From Minisyncoccota bacterium (GTDB lineage: Bacteria > Patescibacteriota > Minisyncoccia > Phycocordibacterales > UBA1006): a stretch of 55,891 nucleotides of DNA. The notes beneath the pieces are model-generated. The model saw only the letters and a list, made by a program, of their open reading frames with translations. It did no database searches and was not told the DNA's origin. The position numbers and the translations under genes were made by a program. This document shows positions 1 to 15,275 of the stretch, piece after piece. The stretch is taken from positions 1-55,891 of the forward strand of contig DASWYC010000002.1 in assembly GCA_036405175.1 (NCBI GenBank), given 5' to 3'. Position 1 is the first letter of the stretch, and every line of letters starts with the position of its first letter.

Positions 1-58
1 ATTTAGCGATTTTCCTCTCCGATAGTTTGGCTTGAAAGGAATTTTTGTTCAAAAGTTT

Positions 59-2287: not shown

Positions 2288-4168
2288 ATGAAATTTTATA
2301 TAAAAAAAATTGGAAAAATTGCGCTTTTTAGTATTTTATTTTATATATCCTACCCATCCAAAATATTTCCTCAATCCCCGCCAGATATTTTTGATTTAGG
2401 CGTAAACTTCGGCCTTTCCGAGGGGTTTTCTTCTAAAAGCTTAGAGTCTGGATTCGTAAGATTAAGTATAAATCGAGCTCAACATCATTTCAAATCCGCA
2501 CAATTCTTCTCAGAGGCTGATATAAATTTTAAATTTCTATTAAAACCTGAGAATCTAACATTTGTGAATATCGAAAAAACAAGAATAGAGATTGAGCAAA
2601 AACTCAATAAATCACCAAAATATCTTCAATTATTTGACTTAGGAGTAAACCTTGGACAATACGAAGCATTTGCTCACATTCTAAGAACGAAAGGATTAAG
2701 TGAAAATGATATTAACTATCTAAATAAAACTGTTACAAATAAGGCTATTTCTCATGCAAAGAATTACGGTGACTTTAAAAATTTAAATGAACTTTTTGGC
2801 ATTCTTAATACCGATAATGTCAGAAATAAGGTAGATGAGATAGCATTAATGAAGGATAATTTAGAAAGAAAATCATTAGCTCTTAGATTATCTCTTAAGG
2901 AACAATTAAATAAAAAAACCGGCTTTAGAGCTGGTGTATGTAAAATAAATCTTAGATGCGATAAAGGTGAAGGACTGGTTGGATATGAACACCCTGACTC
3001 TATAAAGAGATATGCTTTGCATAATTCTGGTGACTTATCTGTCACAGCGTTAGTTGTTGAGAATAATAATACAAAAGTAGCAATTGTAAGCATTGATGCG
3101 TTATTAATCTATGACAAAAATACACAAAGAATTAAGGCAAAAGTAGGTAATCTAATAGGTTTAAGAAATATAATTATTATTGCTTCCCACACTCATTCTG
3201 GCCCAGAATTTTCTGCAGATGATAATAATCTTACAATTCCTCAATTAGTTAGGGAAGAGCAGATAGTTTCCGCAATCGTAATAGCAGCAGGAAGTTTAAA
3301 AGAAGCTGAAATCGGTGTAGGATGGGGAAATATAAATCAAGGATATAGCCGAGTTGAAAGATTTAAGAATAGTACATCAAAAACTAAATATGTACAGATT
3401 TGCGGAAATAATATTTATAGTAATTTAATAAAGAATGCATATTTAAAACAACATCCTTTGGATTTAATTGATAATTCGATAGGAATTATAAAAATTCAAG
3501 ATAGATTTAATAAAAGCTCCATAGCTTCTTTGATAAATTACGCAATGCACCCTGTCGTATTTAGTAAAAAAAATAAAGTTCTTTCAGCAGATTATGTTGG
3601 TATATTAAGAAAATCTATAGAAAAAAGTACTAATGCTCCATGTCTCTTTTTGCAAGGAGCTGCTGGTGATATTGTACCGTGGTGTTCAACTAAAAAATAT
3701 TCTGAGGCAAAACCTGCAGCACGAGAACTTGGGGTAAGTATCTCTAAGGAAGTACTAAAGGTATCGAATAAGATAAGCACATTTTACAATAATCCTATGG
3801 TCACATTTAATTCAACATTGATTCCAATTAAACATTACGATGGGTCTGACCGTATGCCAGATGTTGGAAATATTGCAGAGATAAATACTTTGTCATTTGG
3901 TAAAGACATAGCTTTGTCTACATTTCCTGGTGAAATGTTTGTAGAGCATGGTTTAAACATAAAAAAGAAAAGTGAATTTAAAAATACATTTGTAATTGGA
4001 TATACGAACCATGCAATTGGGTATATCCCTACAAAAAAATACTTTAATACTGGCGGTTATGGAACTAGGCCAACTGAATGTTATACAGCAATAGGGACAG
4101 GAGAAACCCTTGTTGAAACAGCTTTATATATGTTAAATAAGCAGAAAAATATCCAAAATAATTTTTAA
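2288..4168 (+). CDS. neutral/alkaline ceramidase-like hydrolase, secreted
   Basis: ORF 2207..4168. The internal ATG at 2288 gives MKFYIKKIGKIALFSILFYIS, a signal-like start. IIIASHTHSGPEF and FPGEMFVEHG..IGYTNHAIGYIPT match the conserved neutral ceramidase N-terminal-domain motifs. Confidence 0.55.
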   Translation: MKFYIKKIGKIALFSILFYISYPSKIFPQSPPDIFDLGVNFGLSEGFSSKSLESGFVRLSINRAQHHFKSAQFFSEADINFKFLLKPENLTFVNIEKTRIEIEQKLNKSPKYLQLFDLGVNLGQYEAFAHILRTKGLSENDINYLNKTVTNKAISHAKNYGDFKNLNELFGILNTDNVRNKVDEIALMKDNLERKSLALRLSLKEQLNKKTGFRAGVCKINLRCDKGEGLVGYEHPDSIKRYALHNSGDLSVTALVVENNNTKVAIVSIDALLIYDKNTQRIKAKVGNLIGLRNIIIIASHTHSGPEFSADDNNLTIPQLVREEQIVSAIVIAAGSLKEAEIGVGWGNINQGYSRVERFKNSTSKTKYVQICGNNIYSNLIKNAYLKQHPLDLIDNSIGIIKIQDRFNKSSIASLINYAMHPVVFSKKNKVLSADYVGILRKSIEKSTNAPCLFLQGAAGDIVPWCSTKKYSEAKPAARELGVSISKEVLKVSNKISTFYNNPMVTFNSTLIPIKHYDGSDRMPDVGNIAEINTLSFGKDIALSTFPGEMFVEHGLNIKKKSEFKNTFVIGYTNHAIGYIPTKKYFNTGGYGTRPTECYTAIGTGETLVETALYMLNKQKNIQNNF

Positions 4169-4314
4169 TCTTACCATTTTTTGACTTTAAAAAATAAATT
4201 TAGACTATTTTATTTCACGATTTCATCAATACATTTCTTCCTCATATTTAGTGCTATTTAAATTATAAAGTAAAACAGAGGTTATTTCTAATTACTTTTA
4301 GTCTATCACGCAAT

Positions 4315-4467
4315 TCATAAACGAATTTTATTAGTAGTCAGTGGATTAATAGGAGAAATTAATTTGTTTTTTCTGCTAATATCAACCTCCTCACTTAAAT
4401 CTGGAATGATAAACATATCTTTATTCTCATCTATCCAAGTTCGAATGGCGTCAAAGGTGCTCCACAT
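4315..4467 (-). CDS. small ORF (50 aa) MWSTFDAIRTWIDENKDMFIIPDL.., the longest and only ATG-initiated, uninterrupted version of the repeated gene start
   Basis: ATG at 4467 lies inside direct-repeat copy 1 and overlaps the recombinase stop. The same N-terminus recurs at 12888 and 13815. Confidence 0.35.
   Translation of the reverse strand: MWSTFDAIRTWIDENKDMFIIPDLSEEVDISRKNKLISPINPLTTNKIRL
4333..4466 (-). repeat. direct repeat copy 1 (72-bp core 4395-4466; extended homology to copy 2 from about 4333)
   Basis: The core ..atctttattctcatctatccaagttcgaatggcgtcaaaggtgctccaca differs at 3 positions from copies 2 and 3. Confidence 0.85.
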
Positions 4468-6025
4468 CAAGAGGGTTTGCAGTAGCAAACTCTTCAAATA
4501 ACCTTATGGCACTTGGTATTTCAGTGGTTCGATAACCCTGATTTATCTCATAAGGTATTTTTTGGTCAAAAACAAAATAAAAGAGTTGTTGCTTTTCAAG
4601 AGTACTCGAATTTTCCCATGCAATATATGGGGTTTTTAAAAATGTCTTCGCTTTTGTAAGGGCGGTTCGATAAGGAACATCCAGGTCTACTTTCTGCACA
4701 CTTTCTTCCTTAATCTTTTTCAATTCTTTAACGCTCTCTTCTATTTGTTGCTCATACGCACCTCTAACTTCATCAGAGATTGTTTTAAATGCAATATCAG
4801 TAAGACCTCGTATCTTCTCCTCCAATCTCTCTTTCTCTACTTCTTTGTTAGCATGTTGTTTTTTAATATTGGAAGATTCTTCACCCCAAACACGGTCAAA
4901 AACAGTTAGTAATAGTTTGTCGACTTCATCCTTTAAAATATTCTTCTTAAGAACGGTAGCAAACCCGTCCTCAATATCTTTTTTCTTTATTGATTTTCTA
5001 TAGCAGACACAACTAGTGTTTTGGCAAAAATAATAAGCATAGTGCCCCTTACGTCCCTTTGACCATGCGGCGGTCAAATGCATATTGCACGAGCCGCAGA
5101 CTGTAATGCCGCGCATGGGAAAATCATCAGAGATATCGACTCTGATTTGTTTACCAATTTCAGATTTTCCAAGACGTTTCTGTATAAGTTGGAATGTGTT
5201 TGAAGAAATAATACCTTCATGTTTACCTGGACGCCTCTCAACTTCCCAAGGAAGATACTCAACGTCACCGACATAAAAAGGGTCTTTTAGAATTGCGGCA
5301 AACTTATCAATATAACGAGCAGGTTTTTGTTTTTTCCAAAAACCATGTTCTACCAAAAAAGCACAGGCGTCGACTTTGCGAACAAAGATACCAGTTGCAA
5401 AACCTTCTAACGCTTCTTTTAGAACAATACCCTGAATAGGGTCTGGAATTGCATATTTGCCATGCATAGGGCTTTTTACTATGAGATAGCCCTTCTTACC
5501 TCCAAATGGCCAATAACCGGCTTCCAGACGTGCTCTTTGCTTCTGTATAACCTGTCTACTATTTTGATGTCTCTCGAGTTCAGATTGAGCGGCCATAATA
5601 ATTTCAGCAAATTTACCCTCGGGACTTTCATCAAAATTATAGTTAAGGCATCTCAACAACACATTTCGTGCCTTAAAAGCGGCACGTAGTTTTAAATGGA
5701 ACTCTACATCTCGAGCAAAGCGTTTTAAGTCATCAAATACAACAACAAATTCTTTGTGAGGATGAGCGTCAATATAAGCAATAAGTTCACGCATTGCAGG
5801 ACGTCTCATAAAATCTCCCCCTCCTGTAAAACTGTCTTGAAATGTTTTCTTATGTGGAACACCAATTACGTTTAGGTCAGAAATACAACGACCCTCCTGG
5901 CTCTGTAATCCAGACCCTTCCATTTCTTGTCTTTTGCTAGAAACACGAGCATATACTAGGCCTTCTCGGTTTTCATAGATACTACTCGTTAAATTTATTT
6001 TTTTATGACTTATGTCATTTATCAT
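4451..6025 (-). CDS. large serine recombinase (integrase)
   Basis: The N-terminal resolvase motif is LVYARVSSKRQ (catalytic Ser) with RFARD. It also has a recombinase domain, the zinc ribbon CGSCNMHL..YAYYFCQNTSCVC and a C-terminal coiled coil. Length is 524 aa. Confidence 0.9.
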   Translation of the reverse strand: MINDISHKKINLTSSIYENREGLVYARVSSKRQEMEGSGLQSQEGRCISDLNVIGVPHKKTFQDSFTGGGDFMRRPAMRELIAYIDAHPHKEFVVVFDDLKRFARDVEFHLKLRAAFKARNVLLRCLNYNFDESPEGKFAEIIMAAQSELERHQNSRQVIQKQRARLEAGYWPFGGKKGYLIVKSPMHGKYAIPDPIQGIVLKEALEGFATGIFVRKVDACAFLVEHGFWKKQKPARYIDKFAAILKDPFYVGDVEYLPWEVERRPGKHEGIISSNTFQLIQKRLGKSEIGKQIRVDISDDFPMRGITVCGSCNMHLTAAWSKGRKGHYAYYFCQNTSCVCYRKSIKKKDIEDGFATVLKKNILKDEVDKLLLTVFDRVWGEESSNIKKQHANKEVEKERLEEKIRGLTDIAFKTISDEVRGAYEQQIEESVKELKKIKEESVQKVDLDVPYRTALTKAKTFLKTPYIAWENSSTLEKQQLFYFVFDQKIPYEINQGYRTTEIPSAIRLFEEFATANPLDVEHL

Positions 6026-6188
6026 ATTCTCGTAATTCCGTTTTAATCATATTTCGACAGAATGCTTCAAGATACTCAATACGCTTTATGATTAGTTCTT
6101 TCGGACTAGAATAATCATTTAAAATCTTTCTGTACTCATCTACAGAAACTACAGGTTCTTTCCTTTTTTGCTCGACCAATGGGACCAT
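6015..6188 (-). CDS. 57-aa ORF overlapping the recombinase start (candidate accessory or directionality factor)
   Basis: Hand translation gives MVPLVEQKRKEPVVSVDEYRKILNDYSSPKELIIKRIEYLEAFCRNMIKTELREYDK. Its TGA lies inside ATGATAAATGA, the recombinase start, giving an 11-nt overlap. It is below the 60-aa ORF-track cutoff. Confidence 0.3.
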   Translation of the reverse strand: MVPLVEQKRKEPVVSVDEYRKILNDYSSPKELIIKRIEYLEAFCRNMIKTELREYDK

Positions 6189-6333
6189 ATCCCAATGGTA
6201 AAGTTAGACCTATATACCTCTACAATTCCTCTCACATTAAAAACAGATGAAATGAAATCCTTTATTTACTTGAGTCGAAATAGAATTATTAACAGTCACA
6301 GACCTTTATTTTTGAAGAGGTATACCTCCTTGC

Positions 6334-6978
6334 TCACTTAAGGTTTACGTTGGTCACTCGATAGCCAGAAACATTGTCACTTTCAAACAATACGCTTCTA
6401 GGCAGTTCCCATTTCTTAACGACGATATTTCTGATTTCGTCCACAACCTTGCGAACTCTCGGGACCGGCATATCCAGTTTTTCCGAAATCTCTTTTGTGG
6501 CAACATACTCCTTTTCTTTTGCCAGAAAATAAAGTAGTTGGTAACGGTCACTATCCTTTTCAAGTTGATGCTTTTTATCCACGCCCTCGGGATAAAAGAA
6601 GCCATCGCTATCAAGAATGAAATTGCGAGCACTCATCTCTCGTTCAAGTTTCCTCGCAATCTCATTTCTGTATTCCTTAAACTTCGAATTGTCAGCAACG
6701 TAGAACCAAACCATTACTTCGTGCACAGTTCCGTCCGTAACAGTTGTAATGCCAGAAGGACTTTGGCGAAACTCAATCTTTATATTTTCTTTACTTTCTT
6801 CTCTGATTTGGTCAAAAGAAAACTGTACGAGTTCGCTGTTCTGCAAGAGAGCGTGGAAGTTTGAGAGTTGCCCAGAGCCAAGTGTAAACGCTTCAACATC
6901 GGGGTTTTGCTCAATTTGTTCCTTAAGAAAATCTAAAATCTTCTTAATCCGTTCTAAGGGTTTGTGGGACGCATTCAT
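6334..6978 (-). CDS. DNA-binding protein with C-terminal OmpR/PhoB-type winged helix
   Basis: The C-terminus DRYQLLYFLAKEKEYVATKEISEKLDMPVPRVRKVVDEIRNIV..SGYRV follows the trans_reg_C pattern. The N-terminal 140 aa are unrecognised. Confidence 0.5.
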   Translation of the reverse strand: MNASHKPLERIKKILDFLKEQIEQNPDVEAFTLGSGQLSNFHALLQNSELVQFSFDQIREESKENIKIEFRQSPSGITTVTDGTVHEVMVWFYVADNSKFKEYRNEIARKLEREMSARNFILDSDGFFYPEGVDKKHQLEKDSDRYQLLYFLAKEKEYVATKEISEKLDMPVPRVRKVVDEIRNIVVKKWELPRSVLFESDNVSGYRVTNVNLK

Positions 6979-7002
6979 AACCCTATTTTAACCCATTCGG
7001 CA

Positions 7003-7275
7003 CTACACCTTAAGTTTGGCTTTGGCGGCGTATATGGCGTCCTTAAACGCCTCCTTGTTGTGCCGTATGACTGGGTAGCACAACCTCTCTCCGCTAGTCG
7101 TAGTGACCCATACATTCGATGAGTAATAACCACCGACCTCAACAGAAGCGACCTTTTCTATCGGTACTGATTTCTCACCTTCGAAGAAGGATTTTTTGTA
7201 AATGATTCTGTCTGGAAAAACTGCAATCCTCATTCCAAGAATCTTGAAGTGGCGGTCAAATAATGGCTCGCTCAT
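7003..7275 (-). CDS. small PH-like (bPH-type) protein, 90 aa
   Basis: The pattern ..IAVFPDRIIYKK....SVPIEKVASVEVGG...VWVTTTSGE resembles bacterial PH-domain proteins. It is the first gene after the structured leader. Confidence 0.4.
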   Translation of the reverse strand: MSEPLFDRHFKILGMRIAVFPDRIIYKKSFFEGEKSVPIEKVASVEVGGYYSSNVWVTTTSGERLCYPVIRHNKEAFKDAIYAAKAKLKV

Positions 7276-7328
7276 ATCGTTTTATTTCTTTGATAAAACG
7301 GTCCGATACGACCTTCCCTTAAATATGC

Positions 7329-7478
7329 AAAAAGGGACACCCGGAGCCGGCGTCCCACAGGCTTGAATGCACAAGGCACCAATTGTGGCGGTCGGGTGCC
7401 CCTTTCAGCCCGCAATTGGGGCTTCGAAAAAGAAGCACAAGACCTTGTACATTGAAAATAAACCTATGGGACGCCCGC
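7329..7478 (-). promoter_or_regulatory. GC-rich structured RNA leader with mutually exclusive long-range P1 helix and intrinsic terminator
   Basis: On the minus strand, P1 pairs 7478-7463 with 7361-7346 (14 Watson-Crick pairs, 1 GU and 1 mismatch over 16 positions). P2 pairs 7453-7443 with 7376-7366 (11 bp including 1 GU). The terminator is GGGACGCC-loop-GGGUGUCCC (7356-7334) followed by UUUUU (7333-7329). The terminator 5-prime arm is part of the P1 3-prime strand. One position in each helix (two in total) is GU on the minus strand but A-C on the plus strand. Confidence 0.45.
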
Positions 7479-7517
7479 TAATTATAACAGATTTTCTTTA
7501 AGTAGACCCACACCCCT

Positions 7518-7590
7518 AAATTGGCATTTGAGAAGGCAATTTGCCTTAAAATAAGGGTTTTCCTATTAGGTAAATGCCAATTGCCAATTT
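7518..7590. promoter_or_regulatory. array of TTGGCA/TGCCAA dyads at the 3-prime end of the protease gene
   Basis: aaattggcattt (7518-7529) is the reverse complement of aaatgccaattt within 7572-7590, which also holds tandem gccaatt gccaatt. A central near-palindrome aaggcaatttgcctt sits at 7533-7547. Confidence 0.4.
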
Positions 7591-9859
7591 ATATTCCTGA
7601 TACGACTTCAACAGGAACGGATACATGGGTTTCAACCTCAATCATATTCTGAATCTCTTCGTGCAAATCTACACCCTCGACTTCTTTTATGTCTTCGATA
7701 GTTAGAATTACAGAGTATTTTTGCTTGTAGTCAGCAGGGACCATCAACTCATCTTTGTTTTCGCAGATAATTTTCAATTCCCAGAAACGACCTGTGTGTT
7801 CTTTGGTGTTTTTATCAATAGGCGGATAGTGCTGAACATTAGATTTTGTATGTGCACCACCGTAAGTATCTTTGGTGTTTCTACCTGCAATATTGGCATT
7901 ATCACAACGAACCAATTGGGCTGAAATAATGAGAGGATTATAAATCCTGTGATTTTTTGTATTTACAACAGGGTTATAAACTAGCGTCTTTCTTATTCTT
8001 AATCTCTTATGAGAATCACCTGCAATTGAAGCAGGTATAGGAAACCTCACAGTCTTTTGTTTGCAATCTTTTTCTCCACCAACAACTATCTCGTCTTCAA
8101 TAATTATTGTTGAACTATGGTTTGTTGAGTGCAGAGTTCTTTCTAATTGAGGTATCCCAAAACCAATCATTCGTTCTCTAATCTTCTTGCTAGCAATGCC
8201 TTGTCCGACATCCCTATTCGCAAAGTGTATTATTAAACCCTTGAGTGAATTTGTAGTTAAGTCTGGATATTGATTATGCAAAACCGATAAGTCATGTGCT
8301 ACCAGAGGTGCGGCAAAACTAGTACCACCCATTGAGGTCAAAGTATCATTGTCCTGATGAGCCATAAGTGGCCCGTTGTCTTCACAGGTGAAATCTGTTT
8401 TGTAGTTAGAATCATAATTAACAAGGTCTGGCTTTATGAAAGGAAATTTATCTAGATTGCCTCTCGTGTGAGCAACGGGGCTATTTATTTTTGCCATCGA
8501 ATCAGCAGTTTCAGCAAAAGCAATTGAGCCAACAGAAATATTGTTAATGCTATCTGCAGGAGGTAATATTCGAGCAAATTTTTCAGTGAAGTAATGCGGA
8601 TAGCCCTTTTGTAAACATTTTGTTACCAAATCCCTAGGCCAATTTTTGAATAAGTTGCCCGCAGATACAACAAACAAGCAATTATATTTATTGGCCAAGT
8701 CGTCGAGTAGAATTGTTAACTTATCGACTCCCTTAACTCTCGTGTAAGCAAGATGATAAGTGTTAATCGAAAGATTTATAATTAACACTTTGTATATCAA
8801 AGAATACTTTTTAACCGCATCTTCAATAATTGACTCGAGATTAAGAAAATTATTTTGACTCACCTTAATCGCAATAACTCTGTTGTCTTGCTGTAGAGTG
8901 CCGTTTGCAACTAAATTTCGTCCATTTATGACCAAACTAGCAACAGCAGTTCCGTGTCCCGGTTCAGAACCATCGTTATTAAGAACATCATCGAGAGCAC
9001 CTTTCAATGCAAAATGATTTTGATTTACGTCAGTATCAAAAACGATTGCAGGAGTTAGGGTAGAAGGTGGATTTATAACGCTGATATTCTGGGATTGCTT
9101 TTTAAAAGAAGACAACTCGACAATATAACTTGGACTCTTTTCTATCTTGGTTATTCCTTCAAGTTCATTTACGGTTTCTTCAATCTCATTAAAATTTGCG
9201 TGTACGCGACAAAAATGTAAGGCGTCTCTGTTTATCTTGGAAACAAATCGTTCGCCATACTTTTCAGAAACAATAGTAAGTTTTCGAGCCACATCTTCTG
9301 TTGTGCCCACAAAAGAAATATCAACAAAATGTTCAGTGTCACTAGAACTTCTCATTTCTCCCAATAGTTCTGGTTCAATGATTTCTTCTAGTTCGAGAGG
9401 TTTTATCTCTCGTATGTAATCAAAGTTTGTTTTCCCTTTATCTTTGTCCGATTCTTTGTAAGTAACAATATCTCGTTGTAGACGCTCAAATTGGGAATGT
9501 GTTTGCCCGTCCAGTTTTTTATTGCTTATTCTTCCGTAAACAATCTCGTTTTCTTTTCTATCTTGCTTTACTTTATAAACTTCAATACCGTACTTTTTAA
9601 TAAAGTCCGGTTTACGTGAACCAATAAAAGTAATTTTAAATTCGTTATTACCTTTATCATCAGTCACCAATAATTGTCCTTGTCTGTCTTCATAGAATTT
9701 TTTTATCCGGTTAACATTTCGTACGAGTAACGTCTTATGTCTTTCACGGTTAAAAGTCGGCTTGGGTTGTATATTTCTCTTGGGGCCGGGCGTATATTTA
9801 CCTTCTCGGGAAATTAGTTGTCCTGGCAAATTAAGATGTTTGTAGAGTTTTTTAGGCAT
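7589..9859 (-). CDS. S8 subtilisin-family serine peptidase with unrecognised N- and C-terminal regions (IetS-like)
   Basis: Catalytic-triad motifs are VFDTDVN (Asp), GHGTAVASL (His) and GGTSFAAPLVAH (Ser). The start lies 3 nt after the stop of the upstream ATPase gene. Length is 756 aa. Confidence 0.8.
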   Translation of the reverse strand: MPKKLYKHLNLPGQLISREGKYTPGPKRNIQPKPTFNRERHKTLLVRNVNRIKKFYEDRQGQLLVTDDKGNNEFKITFIGSRKPDFIKKYGIEVYKVKQDRKENEIVYGRISNKKLDGQTHSQFERLQRDIVTYKESDKDKGKTNFDYIREIKPLELEEIIEPELLGEMRSSSDTEHFVDISFVGTTEDVARKLTIVSEKYGERFVSKINRDALHFCRVHANFNEIEETVNELEGITKIEKSPSYIVELSSFKKQSQNISVINPPSTLTPAIVFDTDVNQNHFALKGALDDVLNNDGSEPGHGTAVASLVINGRNLVANGTLQQDNRVIAIKVSQNNFLNLESIIEDAVKKYSLIYKVLIINLSINTYHLAYTRVKGVDKLTILLDDLANKYNCLFVVSAGNLFKNWPRDLVTKCLQKGYPHYFTEKFARILPPADSINNISVGSIAFAETADSMAKINSPVAHTRGNLDKFPFIKPDLVNYDSNYKTDFTCEDNGPLMAHQDNDTLTSMGGTSFAAPLVAHDLSVLHNQYPDLTTNSLKGLIIHFANRDVGQGIASKKIRERMIGFGIPQLERTLHSTNHSSTIIIEDEIVVGGEKDCKQKTVRFPIPASIAGDSHKRLRIRKTLVYNPVVNTKNHRIYNPLIISAQLVRCDNANIAGRNTKDTYGGAHTKSNVQHYPPIDKNTKEHTGRFWELKIICENKDELMVPADYKQKYSVILTIEDIKEVEGVDLHEEIQNMIEVETHVSVPVEVVSGI

Positions 9860-9862
9860 AAA

Positions 9863-10993
9863 TTATTTCTTCCTCGGGGAATACTTTGGATAAGTATTGC
9901 GATGAATACCAAGAACAGACGCAATAACAACCTTCGGATAACCCATACTCTCAACCTCCTTTAGGAGTTTCGTAAGCAGTTTTTCATTTTTGCTTTTGAT
10001 ATTTTTAAGGCTTGATAGATAGCCATCAAACAAAAGAATCTCAAGAAAATCCTTATAAGTAATTTCTTTCCTGTCACCGAGAATCATTTCCATTTTTGCT
10101 TTCTCAATTACACCTTTGATTTCATCAACCGTGTCTAAGTTCAGCAGATTAAATACGCTGAAAATAAAGTCCCACTCTTTCTTGGAAAGTTTCGTTTCAA
10201 TACTCTTATCGTGCTCAATGAGGTAACCCAAGAAATCTTTTTTGTCAGAGTCACTTAAAGCACCGACCTCTATTTTAAATGGGAAACGTCTAAGTATTGC
10301 AGAGTCAATTGTATCTATGAGATTTGTGGCAACGATAACGATTTTATTGCTTGCAGAAAAATCCAAGGTTTGAATAATGGAGTTTACAATTCTTTTTAGT
10401 TCTCCAACATCGTTGTTGTCGGCTCTTGTTTTTGCAAAAGCATCAAACTCGTCAATAAAGATAACTTCTCGTCCTGGTGTGTGGAAAATATCGGCTATGT
10501 TTTTCATTGTCTCTCCAAGACGAGAAGACATGACATCAGTCACCTTTACGTATCGTGTAGGCAATTTCAGTTGCTCTGCAATATAAAAGCCAAGTGTTGT
10601 CTTTCCTGTACCAGGAGGACCGTAGAGTAGGATTCGATTTAGTTTTTGGTCGTCCTGTAATTTTTCTATCCTTCTGTAATATTCAAGAATCCTATCAAGT
10701 CTTTTTTTGAGAGACGATGGAAGCCAAATCTTTTTTACATCAACGTGGTAAGACTGCTTCATCGCACTCGCACTTTGAACGTGTCGAGTGCCTATAGGGG
10801 ACCCTTCAATCTCGGCCAGGAGTTTCATCAAGGAGTTATAGACCTCATGGCGATTATTATTTATTTCACTAACAGCAATCTTTTGAAGTAGGTCGAAAAG
10901 TTCCTGCCTTTCACCAATCAAACCAAGTCGGGCTATTTCAATTAAATTTTTGTTTGATTTAGAAAGCATATAGTCGAGAGTACATCTGCACAT
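9863..10993 (-). CDS. AAA+ ATPase (IetA-like) with possible C-terminal Fis-type HTH
   Basis: Walker A is GPPGTGKTT and Walker B is VIFIDEFD, with the AAA-lid pattern ILRRFPFKIEV. The C-terminus IASVLGIHRNTYPKY looks like a short HTH. The start could be ATG 10993 or ATG 10969. Confidence 0.8.
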   Translation of the reverse strand: MCRCTLDYMLSKSNKNLIEIARLGLIGERQELFDLLQKIAVSEINNNRHEVYNSLMKLLAEIEGSPIGTRHVQSASAMKQSYHVDVKKIWLPSSLKKRLDRILEYYRRIEKLQDDQKLNRILLYGPPGTGKTTLGFYIAEQLKLPTRYVKVTDVMSSRLGETMKNIADIFHTPGREVIFIDEFDAFAKTRADNNDVGELKRIVNSIIQTLDFSASNKIVIVATNLIDTIDSAILRRFPFKIEVGALSDSDKKDFLGYLIEHDKSIETKLSKKEWDFIFSVFNLLNLDTVDEIKGVIEKAKMEMILGDRKEITYKDFLEILLFDGYLSSLKNIKSKNEKLLTKLLKEVESMGYPKVVIASVLGIHRNTYPKYSPRKK

Positions 10994-11022
10994 TTTTATT
11001 ATACACGATTAAAAATGTGCAG
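10986..11022. promoter_or_regulatory. 13-bp perfect inverted repeat overlapping the ATPase promoter and start
   Basis: ctgcacattttta (10986-10998) pairs with taaaaatgtgcag (11010-11022). A minus-strand TATAAT (11004-10999) lies in the 11-bp spacer, and ATG 10993 lies in the left arm. Confidence 0.45.
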
Positions 11023-11392
11023 ACTAGTCCTTATGTTGTGAATATCCCAGAGTTTCTATAAGTTCAATACCCCCATGGTGGAGTACCTGAATTGCTACTT
11101 TATGGAGAAACAAGGGTTTCTTGTAGGTTTTTACTAGTTTGATGAAAATACCAAAAGCGAGAAAGATAACTTTTTAGGCGGTTCGATAAAACCCGACATC
11201 TGTCCACCAAAGTTGTTATTTCTAACAAATTTCAGATACCTATCATTTCAGTCTTTTAAGGAAATAAATTACTATAAGTCGATAATTAAGGAAGTTTGTT
11301 AAACATCTTAATTTTGATAAAATCTTTCTAAGGATATAATTGTTGTGAAAAAGTAGGGTTATCTTTTAACTCAATTAAAAATCCTTATTTAT

Positions 11393-12313
11393 ATGCCTAC
11401 GTTATTAGAATATTACAACAACGATTTTAAAGACCTCAGTATTGACTCAGATATTTCAATGGATTTGAGTAAATCAGATGAAAATGGGCATATTGTCCCA
11501 ATAGGACAGTTGATAATTAAAATGCGAGTTAAAAGTGAAATGAATAGCTCAAGTCTAATTTTTACTTTTTATATTCCTGAAACTACCTTAACGACTAGGA
11601 TGATACTCTCTCTACTTGATAATCTTGATGCATATAAAAAACAAATAAAAGAGGTTGAAGTTATTGGCGGTTTTTTGAATGATATTGATGTTGGAGTTCA
11701 TAATAGTACATTTTCAAGTCGCGTGTTTTTCTATGTAGAAACCCCACCATTAAAAGAAGAGATTTCACAGCTTGAAGTTTACTGTAAAGATAAAAATATT
11801 TATTTAACTATTAGAAGTTTAGATTATGTCAAAACACGTATGAGAAATGAGACACCTTTAGCATTTATCTCGCATGATTCTAGAAATAAGGAATTAATAG
11901 CAAGACCGTTAGCAAATGGCTTAAATTCAAGATTATGTACGGTTTGGTATGATGAATACTCTTTAAAGGTTGGAATGAGTTTAAGAGAATCGATTGAAGA
12001 TGGAATAAAAAAGGCAAAAAAGTGTATTTTGGTTCTCACCAAAGAGTTCCTTGAAAATCCAGGCTGGACCAGAAAAGAATTCAATTCAATTTTCACCAGG
12101 GAGATGATATTTAACGAAAGAGTTGTAATTCCCATATGGTTCAATGTAAAAAAAGAGGAGGTATATGAATATTCACCATCACTGGCTGATACTGTTGCCT
12201 TAATTTGGCCAAATCCTAGTAATCTGACAGATGATGAATACAAAGTAGAAGTAGAGAAGCTTATAAGTAAAATCCATACAGCCGTTACTGCTGAAAATAG
12301 TAAAGATTCTTAG
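11393..12313 (+). CDS. TIR-domain protein with unrecognised 150-aa N-terminal domain
   Basis: The C-terminal half LAFISHDSRNKELIARPLANGL..VWYDEYSLKVGMSLRESIEDGIKKAKKCILVLTKEFLENPGWTRKEFNSI matches the TIR_2 pattern, including the W-x3-E glutamate position. Confidence 0.8.
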   Translation: MPTLLEYYNNDFKDLSIDSDISMDLSKSDENGHIVPIGQLIIKMRVKSEMNSSSLIFTFYIPETTLTTRMILSLLDNLDAYKKQIKEVEVIGGFLNDIDVGVHNSTFSSRVFFYVETPPLKEEISQLEVYCKDKNIYLTIRSLDYVKTRMRNETPLAFISHDSRNKELIARPLANGLNSRLCTVWYDEYSLKVGMSLRESIEDGIKKAKKCILVLTKEFLENPGWTRKEFNSIFTREMIFNERVVIPIWFNVKKEEVYEYSPSLADTVALIWPNPSNLTDDEYKVEVEKLISKIHTAVTAENSKDS

Positions 12314-12319
12314 GAGAGA

Positions 12320-12493
12320 TTATTTATTCGCTATTACTAGGTTCGGCAAAGGTTTACACACCGCCATCAACAGAGTATGTATCTGCTCAAAATACTCAAT
12401 TGCCAACTGTTCAGTAAGCTCAACATCATAGAGTTCTTTATACAACACTTTAAATTTTTCAATATAGAGTGTTTTGTTTGCAAGTGAAGACAT
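12320..12493 (-). CDS. 57-aa ORF downstream of the XRE gene
   Basis: Hand translation gives MSSLANKTLYIEKFKVLYKELYDVELTEQLAIEYFEQIHTLLMAVCKPLPNLVIANK. It starts 44 nt after the XRE stop and ends 7 nt from the convergent TIR stop. It is below the ORF-track cutoff. Confidence 0.3.
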   Translation of the reverse strand: MSSLANKTLYIEKFKVLYKELYDVELTEQLAIEYFEQIHTLLMAVCKPLPNLVIANK

Positions 12494-12537
12494 ATATTAG
12501 GAATATCACATATTCATACATTAAACAATTGAGAAGC

Positions 12538-12744
12538 TTAAAGAGAAGGGTATATATCTTCCGATCTAACATTATATATTTTAGAAAGCGTCATGAGATT
12601 TATGGCACTTGGCATACCTTTACCTCGCTCCCATTCAGATAATCTATCAACACATTTCTTCCCGATAATTTCTGCTACTTGTTTTAGTGTGAGTCCTTTA
12701 TTCTTTCTAATTTCTTTTAGTCTGTTAGGGTATTTCATAATCAA
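12538..12744 (-). CDS. XRE-family helix-turn-helix regulator
   Basis: LKEIRKNKGLTLKQVAEIIGKKCVDRLSEWERGKGMPSAINLMTLSKIY is a canonical HTH_3 pattern. Confidence 0.8.
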   Translation of the reverse strand: MIMKYPNRLKEIRKNKGLTLKQVAEIIGKKCVDRLSEWERGKGMPSAINLMTLSKIYNVRSEDIYPSL

Positions 12745-12752
12745 AGTTTAAA

Positions 12753-12887
12753 TAGTTGTTAGTGGATTAATAAGAGAGGGTAATTTGCTTAATCAGCTAT
12801 CATTAACCTCCTTATTCAAATCGGGAATGATAAATGTATCTTTATTCTCATCTATCCATGTTCGTATGGCATCAAAGGTGCTCCACA
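12753..12887 (-). repeat. direct repeat copy 2 (core 12815-12887), a degenerate gene copy
   Basis: A 51-bp stretch is identical to copy 3. The ORF 12793..12888 starts with TTG instead of ATG and has an in-frame TGA where copy 1 has AGA. Confidence 0.85.
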
Positions 12888-12966
12888 AAATTGCTATTTC
12901 AGCAAATTATCCTCTCTTGAATTTTCTGGGAGAAAGATAATTGACAAAAAGAGCTATAAAACTAGA

Positions 12967-13710
12967 ATGAAGAATAGTATGGAGGACTTGATTAAAGAGG
13001 AACAAGAAATGGCTTTGAATGCTGAAAAGGAATACGGTGAATATTTTGTTCATGCAAAAAGTATGGTCACTCTTTTTAATAATCTTGTCACCCAAATGAA
13101 TATTCCTACCAGATTTATGTTTCTTGCATTTTTTTCTCAAATACGAAAGCATCTAGTATTAGCCTTGTTATCTACGGTTCGCCTTCATCACGTTCAAGCT
13201 GGAATGAATTTACGACAAGTATTAGAAGCAAGTGGGTGGGCTGCCTATGCTTTAGCTCATGAGAATGAGGCATTATTCTGGAGAAAAAATTCCGAAAATA
13301 GAGCTGAGGTTCCTAAGTCCTTAAAGGAAGCAAAAAATACATGGCTAGAAAATAACTATAAAGATGAATCCGATAAAATCAGAATATTGAAGGAATTAAT
13401 AAATGAATCCATTGCACACGCAAATATAGTTTACGCATTTCAGACGTTTGAGCTTGCTGATGACGAAAATGGTTCAGGCTATAATATGCCATATTTTGAT
13501 ATAGGAGATCATTCTTGGGTCAAAATGAACCTTCTAACCGTAGCAAATTTCACAATGAGTATTATTGGACTATTTATAAAAGTAAACCAAAAATACAATG
13601 TCTATAAATCTCCTGCTGACTTAAATCAGCAATATCAAGAGCTCATTGAAGAGCATGAAAATCTTCGTACCAAGATTCAGCAAGATGAGCGCTTTCGGCA
13701 AACAGCCTAG
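12967..13710 (+). CDS. hypothetical protein (247 aa), sole gene between repeat copies 2 and 3
   Basis: Clean ORF with TATAAA (12955-12960) exactly 6 nt before the ATG. No family recognised. Confidence 0.5.
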   Translation: MKNSMEDLIKEEQEMALNAEKEYGEYFVHAKSMVTLFNNLVTQMNIPTRFMFLAFFSQIRKHLVLALLSTVRLHHVQAGMNLRQVLEASGWAAYALAHENEALFWRKNSENRAEVPKSLKEAKNTWLENNYKDESDKIRILKELINESIAHANIVYAFQTFELADDENGSGYNMPYFDIGDHSWVKMNLLTVANFTMSIIGLFIKVNQKYNVYKSPADLNQQYQELIEEHENLRTKIQQDERFRQTA

Positions 13711-13716
13711 CATATT

Positions 13717-13815
13717 TCACTCTTCTTTACATGTCGACCCATTTAAATCTGGAATAATAAAAGTATCTTTATTCTCATCTATCCATGTTCGTATGGCATC
13801 AAAGGTGCTCCACAT
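13717..13815 (-). pseudogene. truncated copy of the repeated small gene (MWSTFDAIRTWIDENKDTFIIPDLNGSTCKEE)
   Basis: ATG at 13815 lies 7 nt downstream of the TfoX_N stop. The sequence diverges from copies 1 and 2 right after IIPDL. Confidence 0.3.
13743..13814 (-). repeat. direct repeat copy 3
   Basis: ttaaatctggaataataaaagtatctttattctcatctatccatgttcgtatggcatcaaaggtgctccaca. Confidence 0.85.
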
Positions 13816-13821
13816 AGTAAA

Positions 13822-14154
13822 TTATTTAATATTTTCTTCAATCGCTTGAGTTGCGATTTTTTCTAGTATTTCTGGAATGTCAAATAAATCTTCCGGCACC
13901 AGCCAGTAGTTCATAGAAACCACTTTCCCATCTTTCTTTTCATAACTAAACTTTTCTGATCCGTACTCTTGAAGCTCATCAATAACTGCTGAGTTTTTTG
14001 TTTTAAGATAGAAATTATTTCCAATGATTGCAGCAAAGGGAATACCATCAGCATAAATTGCCCAACCACTCATCATGGGTTTTGAAGAAATATTTCCGAG
14101 GGATCCTAAAATATCAAAAACAATAAAGTCGTGAAAGTCGAGTGACTTTTTCAT
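13822..14154 (-). CDS. TfoX N-terminal-domain protein
   Basis: ILGSLGNISSKPMMSGWAIYADGIPFAAIIGNNFYLKTK...KFSYEKKDGKVVSMNYWLVPEDL follows the TfoX_N pattern. The start was moved to ATG 14154 (MKKSLDF), which overlaps the upstream stop as TAAtATG. Confidence 0.7.
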   Translation of the reverse strand: MKKSLDFHDFIVFDILGSLGNISSKPMMSGWAIYADGIPFAAIIGNNFYLKTKNSAVIDELQEYGSEKFSYEKKDGKVVSMNYWLVPEDLFDIPEILEKIATQAIEENIK

Positions 14155-14155
14155 A

Positions 14156-14425
14156 TTACTTATAAAATTTTTTAATCCACCAACTTTTAATAAAGGGTAG
14201 TGATAAATTTGAAAGATAGTATCCAAGAGTTGGGATAATGGCTCCAAGCAGTACATTTTCCCCGCCAATAATCCAAAGTGCAAATGCGGCAATGAGATAG
14301 GTAATAACAAGAATTGTAATAAGTTTAATGCGACTTGTTTCCCATGCTTTATCTGACTGCACACGATGGTTGCGCTCTTTAATATTCTCAATTTCTTGTT
14401 CAAGTTGGCGGATTCGTTCTTCCAT
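14156..14425 (-). CDS. small membrane protein with N-terminal coiled-coil segment
   Basis: MEERIRQLEQEIENIKERNH is followed by two hydrophobic helices. The start was chosen at ATG 14425. Confidence 0.45.
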   Translation of the reverse strand: MEERIRQLEQEIENIKERNHRVQSDKAWETSRIKLITILVITYLIAAFALWIIGGENVLLGAIIPTLGYYLSNLSLPFIKSWWIKKFYK

Positions 14426-14489
14426 AATTATATTGGTATAATACACCTGAGTTTGGTAGTGCTGCAATTGACTAAGCCCCACTTTATCT

Positions 14490-15275
14490 ATGGATTTTCA
14501 TCTTATTATAATTTCAGTTATTGAAGGACTTACGGAATTTCTTCCGATTTCTTCAACGGGGCATTTGATCATCGCAGGACACTTAATGCAAGTTGATCTT
14601 GCTGATCCGTATATTAAATTCTATTTGCTATTTATTCAGCTGGGTGCATTGCTTGCTGGGGTTGTGCTGTTTTCAAAAAGAATTCTCACTGACAAAAAAA
14701 CATTCATAAATGTTCTCGTAAGTTTTATTCCAACGGCTATTCTGGGATTTGTACTCTATAAGTTATTTAAGCATTTATTAGAAGGGAATATGATCTTGCT
14801 CGCCAGCATGTTGATTCTTGGTGGAGTGATATTTATGTATTTGGAGCAAGTGTTTATGAAAAAACATGCACTCAAAAGCGGGGAGTTTGGTAAAGAAGAT
14901 ATTTCAATTAAAGATGCTGTAGTGATTGGAGTTGCTCAAGCTGCTGCTATGGTTCCTGGTGTATCGCGTTCTGGTGCTACTATTATTGCTGGAATTTTAC
15001 GTGGTATTAAAAAAGCAAGCATTATTGAATACACATTTTTGCTAGCACTTCCCACACTCGGCGCTGCGGTACTCTATGATATCTACAAATCAAAAGATGT
15101 ATTTGCGCAGATTGGATCGTATCAAGATCTGATCATGGGATTTACCGTTGCGTTTGTTGTTGGGGTTGCTACCTTAAGAATACTTAAAAAGTATTTGCCA
15201 AAGATTTCTCTCACTCATTTTGGATGGTATCGTATTGCCTTGGGAATTATTGTTATTCTGATCTTCGTTATATAA
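14490..15275 (+). CDS. uppP: undecaprenyl-diphosphate phosphatase
   Basis: The BacA/UppP signature EGLTEFLPISSTGHL lies at the N-terminus and PGVSRSGATI in the middle. The protein is polytopic. Confidence 0.9.
   Translation: MDFHLIIISVIEGLTEFLPISSTGHLIIAGHLMQVDLADPYIKFYLLFIQLGALLAGVVLFSKRILTDKKTFINVLVSFIPTAILGFVLYKLFKHLLEGNMILLASMLILGGVIFMYLEQVFMKKHALKSGEFGKEDISIKDAVVIGVAQAAAMVPGVSRSGATIIAGILRGIKKASIIEYTFLLALPTLGAAVLYDIYKSKDVFAQIGSYQDLIMGFTVAFVVGVATLRILKKYLPKISLTHFGWYRIALGIIVILIFVI

What the first reader, a model, noticed from the sequence alone, without database searches (positions are those of the whole stretch)
4315..13815. Three direct copies of a gene-start segment bracket and subdivide a serine-recombinase island
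Core copies lie at 4395-4466, 12815-12887 and 13743-13814, all in one orientation. Copies 2 and 3 share an identical 51-bp stretch (tatctttattctcatctatccatgttcgtatggcatcaaaggtgctccaca), and copy 1 differs at 3 positions. Copies 1 and 2 stay homologous for about 134 bp. On the minus strand each copy is the start of a small ORF, (M/L)WSTFDAIRTWIDENKD(M/T)FIIPDL. Copy 3 sits 7 nt downstream of a TfoX_N gene and diverges right after IIPDL. Copy 2 has TTG in place of ATG and an in-frame TGA. Copy 1 is the longest version with an ATG start and no internal stop. The recombinase ORF ends inside copy 1: its last codons VEHL-stop overlap ATGTGGAGCACCTTTGA in another frame. This fits att-type junctions in which incoming DNA carries a replacement copy of the target gene start. 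Two segments would then be stacked at one site: about 8.3 kb of multi-gene cargo and about 0.85 kb carrying a single gene.
Basis: partly seen in the sequence, partly recalled or inferred. Interest (0 to 1): 0.7.

Follow-up and report, generated by a model that had tools for sequence, protein, structure and literature searches.

The report
Recombinase island in a repeated target
The three repeats are real, but only one is a junction of the recombinase-carrying defence island: the other two are unoccupied copies of the sequence it inserts into, and the island's true far end is marked by the detached last 34 codons of its own recombinase gene.

Summary
Three direct copies of a ~72-nt sequence (R) lie at 4395-4466, 12815-12887 and 13743-13814, with none expected by chance.

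The large serine recombinase (LSR, 4451-6025, minus strand) belongs to a very large Patescibacteria family. In that family attP lies inside the 3' end of the recombinase ORF, so integration cuts off a conserved ~33-aa C-terminal tail and leaves it at the far end of the element.

In this window the tail lies at 11103-11207, not at repeat copy 2. The mobile element is therefore 6.74 kb (4461-11207). It carries IetA/IetS defence genes and a conserved 90-aa/214-aa/57-aa/LSR backbone.

Copy 1 is the target-side half of its attR. A metagenomic contig (L005) and copy 2 both carry the same site uninterrupted, so copies 2 and 3 are unoccupied copies of the target. The XRE, TIR and 247-aa genes lie outside the element.

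Why the target is multi-copy is unresolved. Its substitutions look like those of coding sequence, and its geometry resembles an attL.

The closest known system is the Dehalococcoides ssrA genomic islands (DsiB). I rate this a new variant of a known kind, of moderate interest.

The parts
4395..4466 (-). Repeat copy 1 (R1): the target-side (B') half of attR of the recombinase element. The small ORF MWSTF... (50 aa, 4315-4467) starts here.
4461..4465 (-). attR core GTGGA. This is the only stretch shared by attL, attR and the uninterrupted site, so the crossover lies within it.
4200..4394 (-). Extension of copy 1: a spacer, then a decayed XRE HTH gene (MNCVID*), 77% identical to 12646-12814.
   Evidence: (D5, D6)
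4451..6025 (-). Large serine recombinase in its integrated (truncated) form: 524 aa, ending ...NPLDVEHL*.
   Evidence: Pfam Resolvase, Recombinase and Zn_ribbon_recom. Family alignment A3 has invariant Y25, R27-V28-S29-S30 and Q33.
6015..6188 (-). 57-aa ORF that overlaps the recombinase start. Part of the integration module; function unknown.
   Evidence: relatives also carry a small gene overlapping the LSR start
6334..6978 (-). 214-aa backbone protein, 63% identical to its counterpart in L108.
7003..7275 (-). 90-aa backbone protein, 76% identical to its counterpart in L108.
7290..7480 (.). GC-rich, strongly folding non-coding stretch of the backbone, about 96% identical to L108.
7589..9859 (-). 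IetS-like S8 protease (defence cargo).
   Evidence: PADLOC IetS E=1.9e-58; Pfam Peptidase_S8
9863..10993 (-). IetA-like AAA ATPase (defence cargo).
   Evidence: PADLOC IetA E=5.5e-60
11100..11207 (-). attL core (11203-11207) followed by the P' arm. The P' arm holds the detached last 34 codons of the recombinase, (V)DRCRVLSNRLKSYLSRFWYFHQTSKNLQETLVSP, and its stop (11100-11102).
   Evidence: tail HMM E=1.1e-11; sequence; reconstruction of a 555-aa ORF
11208..11240 (-). Left (B) arm of the occupied target site, 28/30 identical to the arm in front of R in L005.
   Evidence: A5
11393..12313 (+). TIR-domain protein (ThsB-like / PDC-S66-like). It lies outside the recombinase element.
12538..12744 (-). 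Intact XRE-family HTH gene following copy 2. A 57-aa ORF follows at 12320-12493.
12815..12920 (-). Repeat copy 2 (12815-12887) with its homologous left arm (12888-12920). This is an uninterrupted paralogue of the target site.
12967..13710 (+). 247-aa ORF of unknown function between copies 3 and 2. The likely start is 12979.
   Evidence: no Pfam, PADLOC or NCBIfam hit; promoter-like site at 12941-12968
13743..13814 (-). Repeat copy 3, 6 nt after the TfoX_N stop. Target-type sequence extends only to +72.
13822..14154 (-). TfoX_N gene (110 aa), the conserved right flank.
   Evidence: Pfam TfoX_N E=1.8e-19

Best explanation
The recombinase island is a 6.74-kb integrative element (window 4461-11207, read on the minus strand). 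It belongs to a large, mostly Patescibacteria family of large serine recombinase (LSR) elements.

How the family works. attP lies inside the 3' end of the recombinase ORF. The free form encodes a full-length LSR (555 aa here) whose last ~33 residues, ...V[DE]xxxxxLSNRLKxYLSRFWxYxQxSxxLQxxL..., are encoded by the P' arm. Recombination at a GTGGA core splits the gene. The truncated LSR stays at one end, where it reads into the target. The tail-coding piece ends up several kb away at the other end.

Usual and actual target. Most relatives insert at the extreme 3' end of a tmRNA or tRNA gene. This element, and a few relatives, use a non-tRNA sequence instead. That sequence is the repeat R, preceded by a ~35-nt left arm.

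The three copies. Copy 1 is the target half of attR. Its former left arm now sits at 11208-11240, next to the tail piece. Copies 2 and 3 are further, unoccupied copies of the same target. They belong to short modules (left arm - GTGGAG - R - spacer - XRE HTH gene) that sit between defence-gene blocks of a composite island.

Shown: the repeats, the family architecture, both junctions, an uninterrupted site, and cargo exchange on a conserved backbone.

Inferred:
- the crossover lies within GTGGA;
- loss of the tail changes recombinase activity after integration;
- the R modules are relics of earlier insertions of related elements.
For: (1) Family. More than 980 homologues have E<1e-20, and 389 loci occur among GTDB species representatives, mostly Patescibacteria.

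(2) Overlap with tmRNA or tRNA. In relatives the LSR 3' end (...LDVE/LDVD = GATGTGGAG/C) runs antisense into a tmRNA gene. ARAGORN finds this in 27 of 80 GTDB loci, and Rfam finds tmRNA in L011, L013 and L016. In others it runs into a tRNA-like 3' end.

(3) The tail. An HMM built from five tails finds the tail on the LSR strand, upstream of the LSR, in 40 of 76 relatives. The implied element sizes are 3.3-10.6 kb, median 6.4 kb. Four loci have two LSRs in tandem. In three of them (L030, L032, L046) the upstream LSR is uninterrupted and ends in the tail.

(4) The window. The only tail copy is at 11103-11207 (E=1.1e-11). Joining it to the LSR at the core gives an open 555-aa ORF collinear with the uninterrupted relatives.

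(5) Closest relative. L108 (LSR 80% identical) shows homology running from the tail to the core. It has the same 90-aa, ~215-aa and LSR backbone and a near-identical non-coding stretch, but different cargo.

(6) Uninterrupted sites. L005 reads GATAATTTGTTAAAAATAACAACTTTG-GTGGA-GCACCTTTGATGCC. This equals the window's left arm (28/30) joined directly to R. Copy 2 has a homologous left arm (A5).

(7) Other assemblies. attL and attR are reproduced in other samples' contigs (L006, L007, L009).
Against: - No excised circle or empty site from the same locus and population was found. L005 is a paralogous or foreign copy of the site with different flanks.
- R and the element's P' arm share little beyond the core and a CGAAC motif at +18..22. 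That is unusual for attB/attP pairs, so the insertion could be at a secondary site.
- The reason for three target copies is not explained by the recombination model itself.
- R shows a coding-like substitution pattern: 7 of 8 variable sites are at third codon positions, P=0.0026. A pure DNA-site reading does not predict this.
- Activity of the recombinase, and any role of the tail, are untested.
Confidence: 0.78

Rival explanations
1. The three R copies are att junctions of two insertions stacked at one site: an 8.4-kb element from copy 2 to copy 1, and a 0.93-kb single-gene element from copy 3 to copy 2. Each insertion brought a replacement copy of the start of a small target gene.
For: - The copies are direct repeats with a sharp common 5' boundary.
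- The LSR ends inside copy 1.
- Copies 2 and 3 are nearly identical (94.6% over 74 nt), as expected after a recent event.
- The k=31 graph is equally compatible with a 0.93-kb circle plus an empty site.
- Tandem arrays and recombinase-less islands bounded by repeats are known for related systems (PMC3146451).
Against: - The family-wide split-ORF architecture puts the left end at 11203-11207.
- L108 shares nothing with the window between 11208 and 12887.
- Copies 2 and 3 carry target-type sequence on both sides of the core and no P' tail.
- Copy 1 and copy 2 modules are only 77% identical over 244 nt. That indicates old paralogy, not a fresh target duplication.
Confidence: 0.1
2. R and its left arm are relics of earlier insertions. 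In this reading they are the P' arm (a recombinase tail read in another frame) plus the last codons of a second, now lost lineage of the same kind of element. The island would then be an array of decayed stacked elements, and the intact element inserted into an attL-like relic.
For: - R carries the GAAC motif at +19..22 from the core, the spacing seen in P' arms. tmRNA-type B' arms carry it at +13..17.
- The coding-like constraint applies in a frame that begins at the core.
- Uninterrupted copies (L005, and the pre-insertion copy 1) lack a start codon.
- Similar peptides in the same frame occur at the B' arms of L108, L046 and L050.
- Relatives do accumulate tail relics: three are seen in L011, and one with an LSR 3' end remnant in L077.
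- A further decayed XRE gene lies just beyond the window (L006:12990-13170).
Against: - No recombinase with a WSTFDAIRTW... tail exists among 5.8 billion proteins.
- The resemblance of the left arm to an LSR 3' end is weak.
- It requires attP x attL-type recombination, which classical serine integrases do not perform.
Confidence: 0.25
3. R is the start of a genuine small gene (or leader peptide) in a regulatory module upstream of XRE repressors that control neighbouring defence genes. The modules multiplied by segmental duplication. The recombinase element hit one of them as a one-off secondary site.
For: - Of 8 variable sites, 7 are at third codon positions and 6 are synonymous.
- R lies in the spacer between a divergently oriented cargo gene and the XRE gene in unit 2 and in L005. 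Septu genes lie convergently beyond the decayed XRE gene in L005.
- The XRE protein hits regulator models (PADLOC).
Against: - There is no start codon in L005 or in the pre-insertion copy 1, and the C-termini vary with early stops.
- No homologue is known.
- Three other elements of the family sit at similar sequences (L108, L046, L050). This argues for a recognised target class rather than a chance hit.
Confidence: 0.15
4. The repeat arrangement is an assembly artefact, a mis-join at repeated sequence.
For: Copies 2 and 3 share more than 31 identical bases, and every k=31 contig breaks there. The order TfoX_N - copy 3 - 247-aa gene - copy 2 therefore rests on the window's own assembly.
Against: - attL, the whole element, attR and the left flank are contiguous in independent contigs from several samples (L006, L007, L009).
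- Copy 1 has private substitutions and is crossed by six contigs at 100% identity.
Confidence: 0.05

Closest known systems
Dehalococcoides ssrA-specific genomic islands with the DsiB recombinase (McMurdie et al. 2011, PMC3146451)
   Same: - A ~540-aa CcrB-like large serine recombinase whose 3' end overlaps the att site, at the tmRNA gene or at its direct repeat.
- Small non-conjugative islands carrying accessory cargo.
- Tandem arrays and recombinase-less islands.
- The authors already suggested that the gene may be complete only on the circular form.
- The relatives of the window's LSR behave the same way at tmRNA.
   Different: - Here a conserved 33-aa tail is demonstrably encoded at the far end in dozens of species. 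The authors found DsiB C-termini divergent.
- No second small serine recombinase (DsiA) is present, nor the ParB, Mom or tRNA-Gly-like module genes.
- The window's element sits at a non-tRNA, multi-copy sequence rather than at ssrA.
- The cargo is phage-defence genes.
- The host is Patescibacteria.
- Sequence relatedness to DsiB was not tested.
Staphylococcal cassette chromosome (SCC) elements with CcrAB/CcrC (own knowledge; also summarised in PMC3146451)
   Same: - Cargo cassettes mobilised by a large serine recombinase.
- Composite arrays subdivided by direct repeats of the integration-site sequence.
- Cassettes without their own recombinase.
   Different: - SCC inserts at the 3' end of rlmH (orfX).
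- The ccr genes are internal and are not split by integration.
- The NCBIfam CcrB model scores only 69 bits against a cut-off of 900.
tRNA/tmRNA-targeting genomic islands in general (Islander, PMC4383910)
   Same: Relatives of this element insert at tRNA or tmRNA 3' ends and regenerate the gene end.
   Different: - Those islands are mostly driven by tyrosine integrases.
- The window's element is not at a tRNA or tmRNA. No such gene or fragment was found in 3900-14600.
SSV-type archaeal integrases, whose gene is partitioned by integration (own knowledge)
   Same: attP lies inside the integrase ORF, so integration splits the gene.
   Different: - They are tyrosine recombinases of archaeal viruses and plasmids.
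- The split there is near the 5' part of the gene and leaves two large fragments.

Membership tests
Large serine recombinase (serine integrase) element | N-terminal resolvase catalytic domain with the serine nucleophile | tested here: met
   Pfam Resolvase E=1.5e-17. R27-V28-S29-S30 are invariant in 24 family members (A3). PDB hit to the TP901-1 integrase catalytic domain.
Large serine recombinase (serine integrase) element | C-terminal recombinase domain plus zinc-ribbon domain | tested here: met
   Pfam Recombinase (E=2e-4, 22.0 bits vs cut-off 21.1) and Zn_ribbon_recom (E=9.6e-6, 26.3 bits vs cut-off 25.3).
Large serine recombinase (serine integrase) element | Element bounded by attL and attR that share only a short core, with an uninterrupted attB elsewhere | tested here: met
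   The GTGGA core is shared by 11203-11207, 4461-4465 and L005. L005 and copy 2 are uninterrupted.
Large serine recombinase (serine integrase) element | Catalysis of attP x attB recombination | not testable with these tools
   Needs an in vivo or in vitro assay.
ssrA/tDNA-specific LSR islands (DsiB-like) | Recombinase 3' end overlaps the att site | tested here: met
   The LSR stop lies 8 nt past the core inside copy 1. Relatives overlap tmRNA or tRNA.
ssrA/tDNA-specific LSR islands (DsiB-like) | Integration at the tmRNA (or a tRNA) gene | tested here: not met
   ARAGORN and Rfam find no tRNA or tmRNA in 3900-14600, even at E<=10. This feature is met in many relatives.
ssrA/tDNA-specific LSR islands (DsiB-like) | Integration module with a second small serine recombinase (DsiA) plus ParB, Mom and RecF-like genes | tested here: not met
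   The 57-aa, 90-aa and 214-aa ORFs have no Pfam or NCBIfam hit.
SCC (CcrB/CcrC) elements | Recombinase is a CcrB/CcrC equivalog and insertion is in rlmH | tested here: not met
   NCBIfam SCCmet_CcrB scores 69 bits against a cut-off of 900. No rlmH gene is nearby.
IetAS (Ietat) defence system (cargo) | Adjacent IetA AAA ATPase and IetS S8 protease genes | tested here: met
   PADLOC IetA E=5.5e-60 and IetS E=1.9e-58. The genes are 3 nt apart on one strand. Defence activity was not tested.
Integron-like cassette platform | IntI tyrosine recombinase with attI and attC sites | tested here: not met
   The only recombinase is a serine recombinase. The stem flanking R in copy 2 is not conserved in L005.

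The most novel reading that the evidence does not exclude
R modules are dedicated multi-copy docking sites inside a Patescibacteria defence island. Small serine-recombinase cassettes with interchangeable defence cargo plug into them. Each cassette's recombinase switches itself off or changes direction on arrival, because integration removes its conserved C-terminal tail. At the same time the insertion donates a start codon to a short conserved ORF at the target. This would amount to a serine-recombinase counterpart of an integron platform, with a built-in integration-state switch.
Probability: 0.15. Interest if true: 0.8.

Novelty: new variant of a known kind. Interest (0 to 1): 0.55.

Why it matters
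1. Annotation. It corrects the anatomy of the island. The mobile unit is the 6.74-kb IetAS cassette, not everything between the repeats.

2. Candidate Phyla Radiation (CPR/Patescibacteria) biology. A single recombinase family, present in hundreds of Patescibacteria species, moves small cassettes with exchangeable defence cargo: IetAS here, CBASS-like, type I restriction-modification and other genes in relatives.

3. Recombinase mechanism. The recombinase gene spans attP, so its conserved last ~33 residues are physically removed on integration. This was suspected for Dehalococcoides DsiB. Here it is supported by conservation across dozens of species. It makes a simple, testable hypothesis for how a serine integrase could sense its own integration state without a separate directionality factor. 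That is relevant to the use of such enzymes as genome-engineering tools.

4. Open question. The multi-copy non-tRNA target with coding-like constraint remains unexplained.

Tried and rejected
- **Small-ORF homologues.** The 50-aa ORF was searched against 5.8 billion proteins. Only itself was found.
- **R elsewhere.**
  - A 22-mer of R gave 0 hits in GTDB genomes and 0 in IMG/VR.
  - A codon-degenerate 48-mer gave one JGI contig, L005.
- **Empty site next to TfoX_N.** The nearest TfoX_N relatives (59-65% identity) have different neighbours, so they are uninformative.
- **Is R a tRNA or tmRNA piece?** ARAGORN and Rfam give no hit, including at permissive thresholds.
  - R keeps only GTGGAG and a CGAAC motif, displaced by 5 nt relative to tmRNA-type sites.
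- **Crossover near the T-loop motif.** This was my first hypothesis, based on 17-20-nt repeats in L032, L033, L077, L090 and L097.
  - I dropped it when attL, attR and L005 showed only GTGGA in common.
- **Inverted repeat around copy 2.** The 29-nt repeat folds strongly (z=-6.25), but it is not conserved in L005 (z=-0.9).
- **XRE gene as part of the element family.** It is absent from relatives.
- **Look-up of the 247-aa protein.** It is not on record, and it has no family hit in Pfam, PADLOC or NCBIfam.
- **Tail piece against 1.84 billion representatives.** The query was too short. It returned one genuine attL-piece ORF and one spurious repeat protein.
- **Recombinase family in viral contigs.** Only one distant relative (36% identity) was found, also next to a tRNA-like end.
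- **Promoter scan.** Nothing was found in R.

Full report
**1. The observation**

The region holds three direct copies of one sequence, here called R. The repeat finder reports them in register at 4326-4466, 12747-12887 and 13674-13814. A 49-mer of the core matches at 4416-4464 (3 mismatches), 12837-12885 and 13764-13812 (0 mismatches), all on the minus strand, with none in 100 shuffles.

Read on the minus strand, homology begins abruptly at (A/T)TGTGGAGC in all three copies (A1). Copy 3 diverges after about 72 nt. Copies 1 and 2 continue for 244 nt at 77% identity. On the copy-2 side this reaches an XRE-family HTH gene that is intact (12538-12744; Pfam HTH_3). On the copy-1 side the gene is decayed.

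**2. Gene content**

In minus-strand order:
- TfoX_N (13822-14154).
- Copy 3.
- A 247-aa ORF on the other strand, with no family hit.
- Copy 2.
- XRE HTH gene, then a 57-aa ORF.
- A TIR protein on the other strand (ThsB-like / PDC-S66-like).
- IetA and IetS (PADLOC E=5.5e-60 and 1.9e-58).
- ORFs of 90, 214 and 57 aa.
- A 524-aa large serine recombinase (LSR; Pfam Resolvase, Recombinase, Zn_ribbon_recom).
- Copy 1.
- The decayed XRE gene.
- A convergent ceramidase-like gene.

**3. The small ORF and R elsewhere**

The 50-aa ORF has no homologue among 5.8 billion proteins except itself. R was not found in GTDB genomes or in IMG/VR.

One JGI contig, L005, carries R in a fourth context. It lies between an unknown gene and Septu genes (PtuA/PtuB), and it has no start codon in front of it.

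**4. The recombinase family**

The LSR has more than 980 homologues with E<1e-20, and 389 loci among GTDB species representatives. Nearly all come from Patescibacteria.

In these relatives the LSR ends ...LDVE or ...LDVD (GATGTGGAG/C). It then reads, antisense, straight into the 3' end of a tmRNA gene. ARAGORN finds this in 27 of 80 GTDB loci, and Rfam finds tmRNA in L011, L013 and L016. In other relatives it reads into a tRNA-like 3' end.

Four loci have two LSR genes in tandem. In three of them (L030, L032, L046) the upstream gene does not stop after DVE/DVD. It continues for about 33 codons...LNRLKxYLSRFWxYYQxSPxLQKALxxx*.

I built a profile from five such tails and searched the six-frame translations of all loci. 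It finds the tail on the LSR strand, several kb upstream of the LSR, in 40 of 76 relatives that have a complete LSR end. The implied element sizes are 3.3-10.6 kb, with a median of 6.4 kb.

The family rule is therefore that attP lies inside the recombinase ORF. Integration separates the last ~33 codons (the P' arm) from the rest of the gene.

**5. The window's element**

The same profile hits the window once, at 11103-11207 on the minus strand (E=1.1e-11). This lies between IetA and the TIR gene. The sequence there reads ...AAATTTGTTAGAAATAACAACTTTG-GTGGA-CAGATGTCGGGTTTTATCGAACCGCC....

Joining the LSR at its GTGGA (4461-4465) to this point gives an open 555-aa ORF. It ends ...NPLDVDRCRVLSNRLKSYLSRFWYFHQTSKNLQETLVSP* and is collinear with the uninterrupted relatives.

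The 30 nt in front of the core match, at 28 of 30 positions, the 30 nt in front of R in L005. There they are joined directly to R...AATTTGTTAAAAATAACAACTTTG-GTGGA-GCACCTTTGATGCC... (A5). L005 is thus an uninterrupted copy of the site.
- attL is at 11203-11207.
- attR is at 4461-4465.
- The only sequence common to attL, attR and the uninterrupted site is GTGGA.
- The element is 6742 bp long.

Copy 2 also has a homologous left arm (12888-12920, A5). It is an unoccupied paralogue in the same genome.

**6. Independent support from the closest relative**

L108 is a 6.4-kb contig from another study, with an LSR 80% identical to the window's. It starts with ...GTGGAC-ACATGTCGGGTTTTATCGAACC... and the tail VDTCRVLSNRLKTYLSRFWYFHQTSKVLQEMQ*. 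It ends with ...CCTCTTGAT-GTGGAG-CTTACTTACCGAAGTTAGAACTT.

Between these ends it shares several features with the window:
- The 90-aa protein (76% identical).
- The ~215-aa protein (63% identical).
- The LSR.
- A ~190-nt non-coding stretch (about 96% identical).

Its cargo is different: four ORFs, one of them PDC-M19A-like, in place of IetAS.

Other samples' contigs reproduce the window's attL, element and attR (L006, L007, L009).

**7. Consequence for the finding**

Copy 1 is a true junction. It is the target half of attR, and the AT of its ATG comes from the element's P arm.

Copies 2 and 3 are not junctions of this recombinase family. They have target-type sequence after the core and no tail. 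The XRE, 57-aa and TIR genes lie outside the mobile element.

It is untested for the 0.93-kb unit, whose order in the assembly I could not confirm. All k=31 contigs break in the sequence shared by copies 2 and 3.

**8. What R is remains open**

Facts that any explanation must accommodate:

(a) Among copies 1, 2, 3 and L005, 7 of 8 variable sites in the first 72 nt fall at third codon positions of the small-ORF frame. Six of them are synonymous (binomial P=0.0026).

(b) L005 and the pre-insertion copy 1 read TAA CAA CTT TGG TGG AGC, with no start codon.

(c) R carries CGAAC at +18..22 from the core. This is the spacing of the family's P' arms. tmRNA-type targets carry it at +13..17.

(d) Three other family members with non-tRNA targets have B' arms with GAAC at the same distance. 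They give similar peptides in the same frame:
- Window: MWSTFDAIRTWIDEN
- L108: MWSLLTEVRT
- L046: MWCLLEKVRTYYEQN
- L050: MWTTSYSIGTILPEN

(e) A further decayed XRE gene lies just beyond the window's left edge (L006:12990-13170).

One reading is that R modules are relics of earlier insertions of a related lineage, so that the target is attL-like. Relatives do accumulate such relics (L011, L077). However, no recombinase with an R-type tail is known. The resemblance of the left arm to an LSR 3' end is weak.

Another reading is a genuine small gene or leader in an XRE regulatory module. I rank these below the main model and leave the origin unresolved.

**9. Comparison with known systems**

The closest described system is the Dehalococcoides ssrA genomic islands. 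They have the following features:
- A CcrB-like LSR (DsiB) whose 3' end overlaps ssrA or its 20-bp repeat.
- Tandem arrays.
- Recombinase-less islands.
- An explicit suggestion by the authors that dsiB may be complete only on the circular form (PMC3146451).

The Patescibacteria family works like that. The window's element differs in four respects:
- It lacks the DsiA, ParB and Mom module.
- It has a demonstrably conserved detached tail.
- It carries defence cargo.
- It sits at a non-tRNA, multi-copy target.

SCC elements are a looser analogue. The NCBIfam CcrB model scores far below its cut-off. Two literature searches aimed at this architecture in Patescibacteria returned no paper describing it.

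**10. Verdict**

The island is a new variant of a known kind of serine-recombinase cassette.

The points of wider interest are the integration-dependent truncation of a conserved recombinase tail across a large Candidate Phyla Radiation (CPR/Patescibacteria) family, and the unexplained multi-copy target.

Noticed in passing
window 7290-7480: A GC-rich non-coding stretch of about 190 nt lies between IetS and the 90-aa gene. It is about 96% identical to L108:3340-3540, although the flanking proteins are only 63-80% identical. It folds strongly (MFE -86 kcal/mol, z=-5.6 on the minus strand; z=-4.3 on the plus strand). There is no Rfam match. It is a candidate structured RNA or DNA element of the integration module.
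   Followed up: partly
L013:9381-9517 and L016:8310-8428: LOOT RNA (RF03000) matches above the gathering score lie just upstream of the recombinase module in two distant relatives, on the strand opposite to the recombinase. This suggests that the orphan RNA family is part of these elements.
   Followed up: no
L006:12990-13170 (about 130-300 nt beyond window position 1): A third, more decayed copy of the XRE HTH gene (DRISEWERG...) lies beyond the ceramidase-like and Laminin_G genes, with no recognisable R in front. The modular island probably extends past the window's left edge.
   Followed up: partly
window 4395-4466, 12815-12887, 13743-13814; L005:1248-1320: Of the 8 variable sites among the four R copies, 7 are at third codon positions of the small-ORF frame and 6 are synonymous (P=0.0026). 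Yet two uninterrupted copies lack a start codon.
   Followed up: partly
L011:1350-1526, 2960-3124, 3828-4085: Three tail (P') copies lie in a row upstream of one recombinase element at a tmRNA gene. Two sit in 129-nt repeats 961 bp apart. This looks like a relic array of earlier insertions. L030, L032, L046 and L056 have two recombinase genes in tandem.
   Followed up: partly
window 11182-11248 (L104 end, L008 start): In sample SRR11449177 the contigs stop 41 nt before the attL core and resume 21 nt after it, leaving 65 nt uncovered. Other samples cross it. The cause (strain variation or low coverage) is unknown.
   Followed up: no
window 12941-12968: The best promoter-like site in 11000-14000 (TTGACA-16-TAGAAT, 11 of 12) ends on the first ATG of the 247-aa ORF. 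The real start is therefore probably the ATG at 12979. This may explain why the 247-aa product is not on record.
   Followed up: no
L005:3-1049: The only other context of R found in public data is next to Septu defence genes (PtuA C-terminus and PtuB, PADLOC E=1e-11 and 8e-28). R modules therefore recur in defence-gene neighbourhoods.
   Followed up: partly
L066 (Caulobacter segnis CC215), L033, L042, L091: Relatives of the recombinase at 44-56% identity occur in a Caulobacter isolate genome and in MAGs labelled Gammaproteobacteria, Bdellovibrionales and Cytophagales. These are either transfers outside Patescibacteria or binning errors.
   Followed up: no
window 32-4168 and L006:13232-16888: The left flank encodes secreted-looking Laminin_G_3 and ceramidase-like proteins. 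Beyond the window it encodes a 1000-aa GDSL lipase / Peptidase_S74 protein, a Dam-like methyltransferase and RadC. This may be further accessory or mobile DNA.
   Followed up: no
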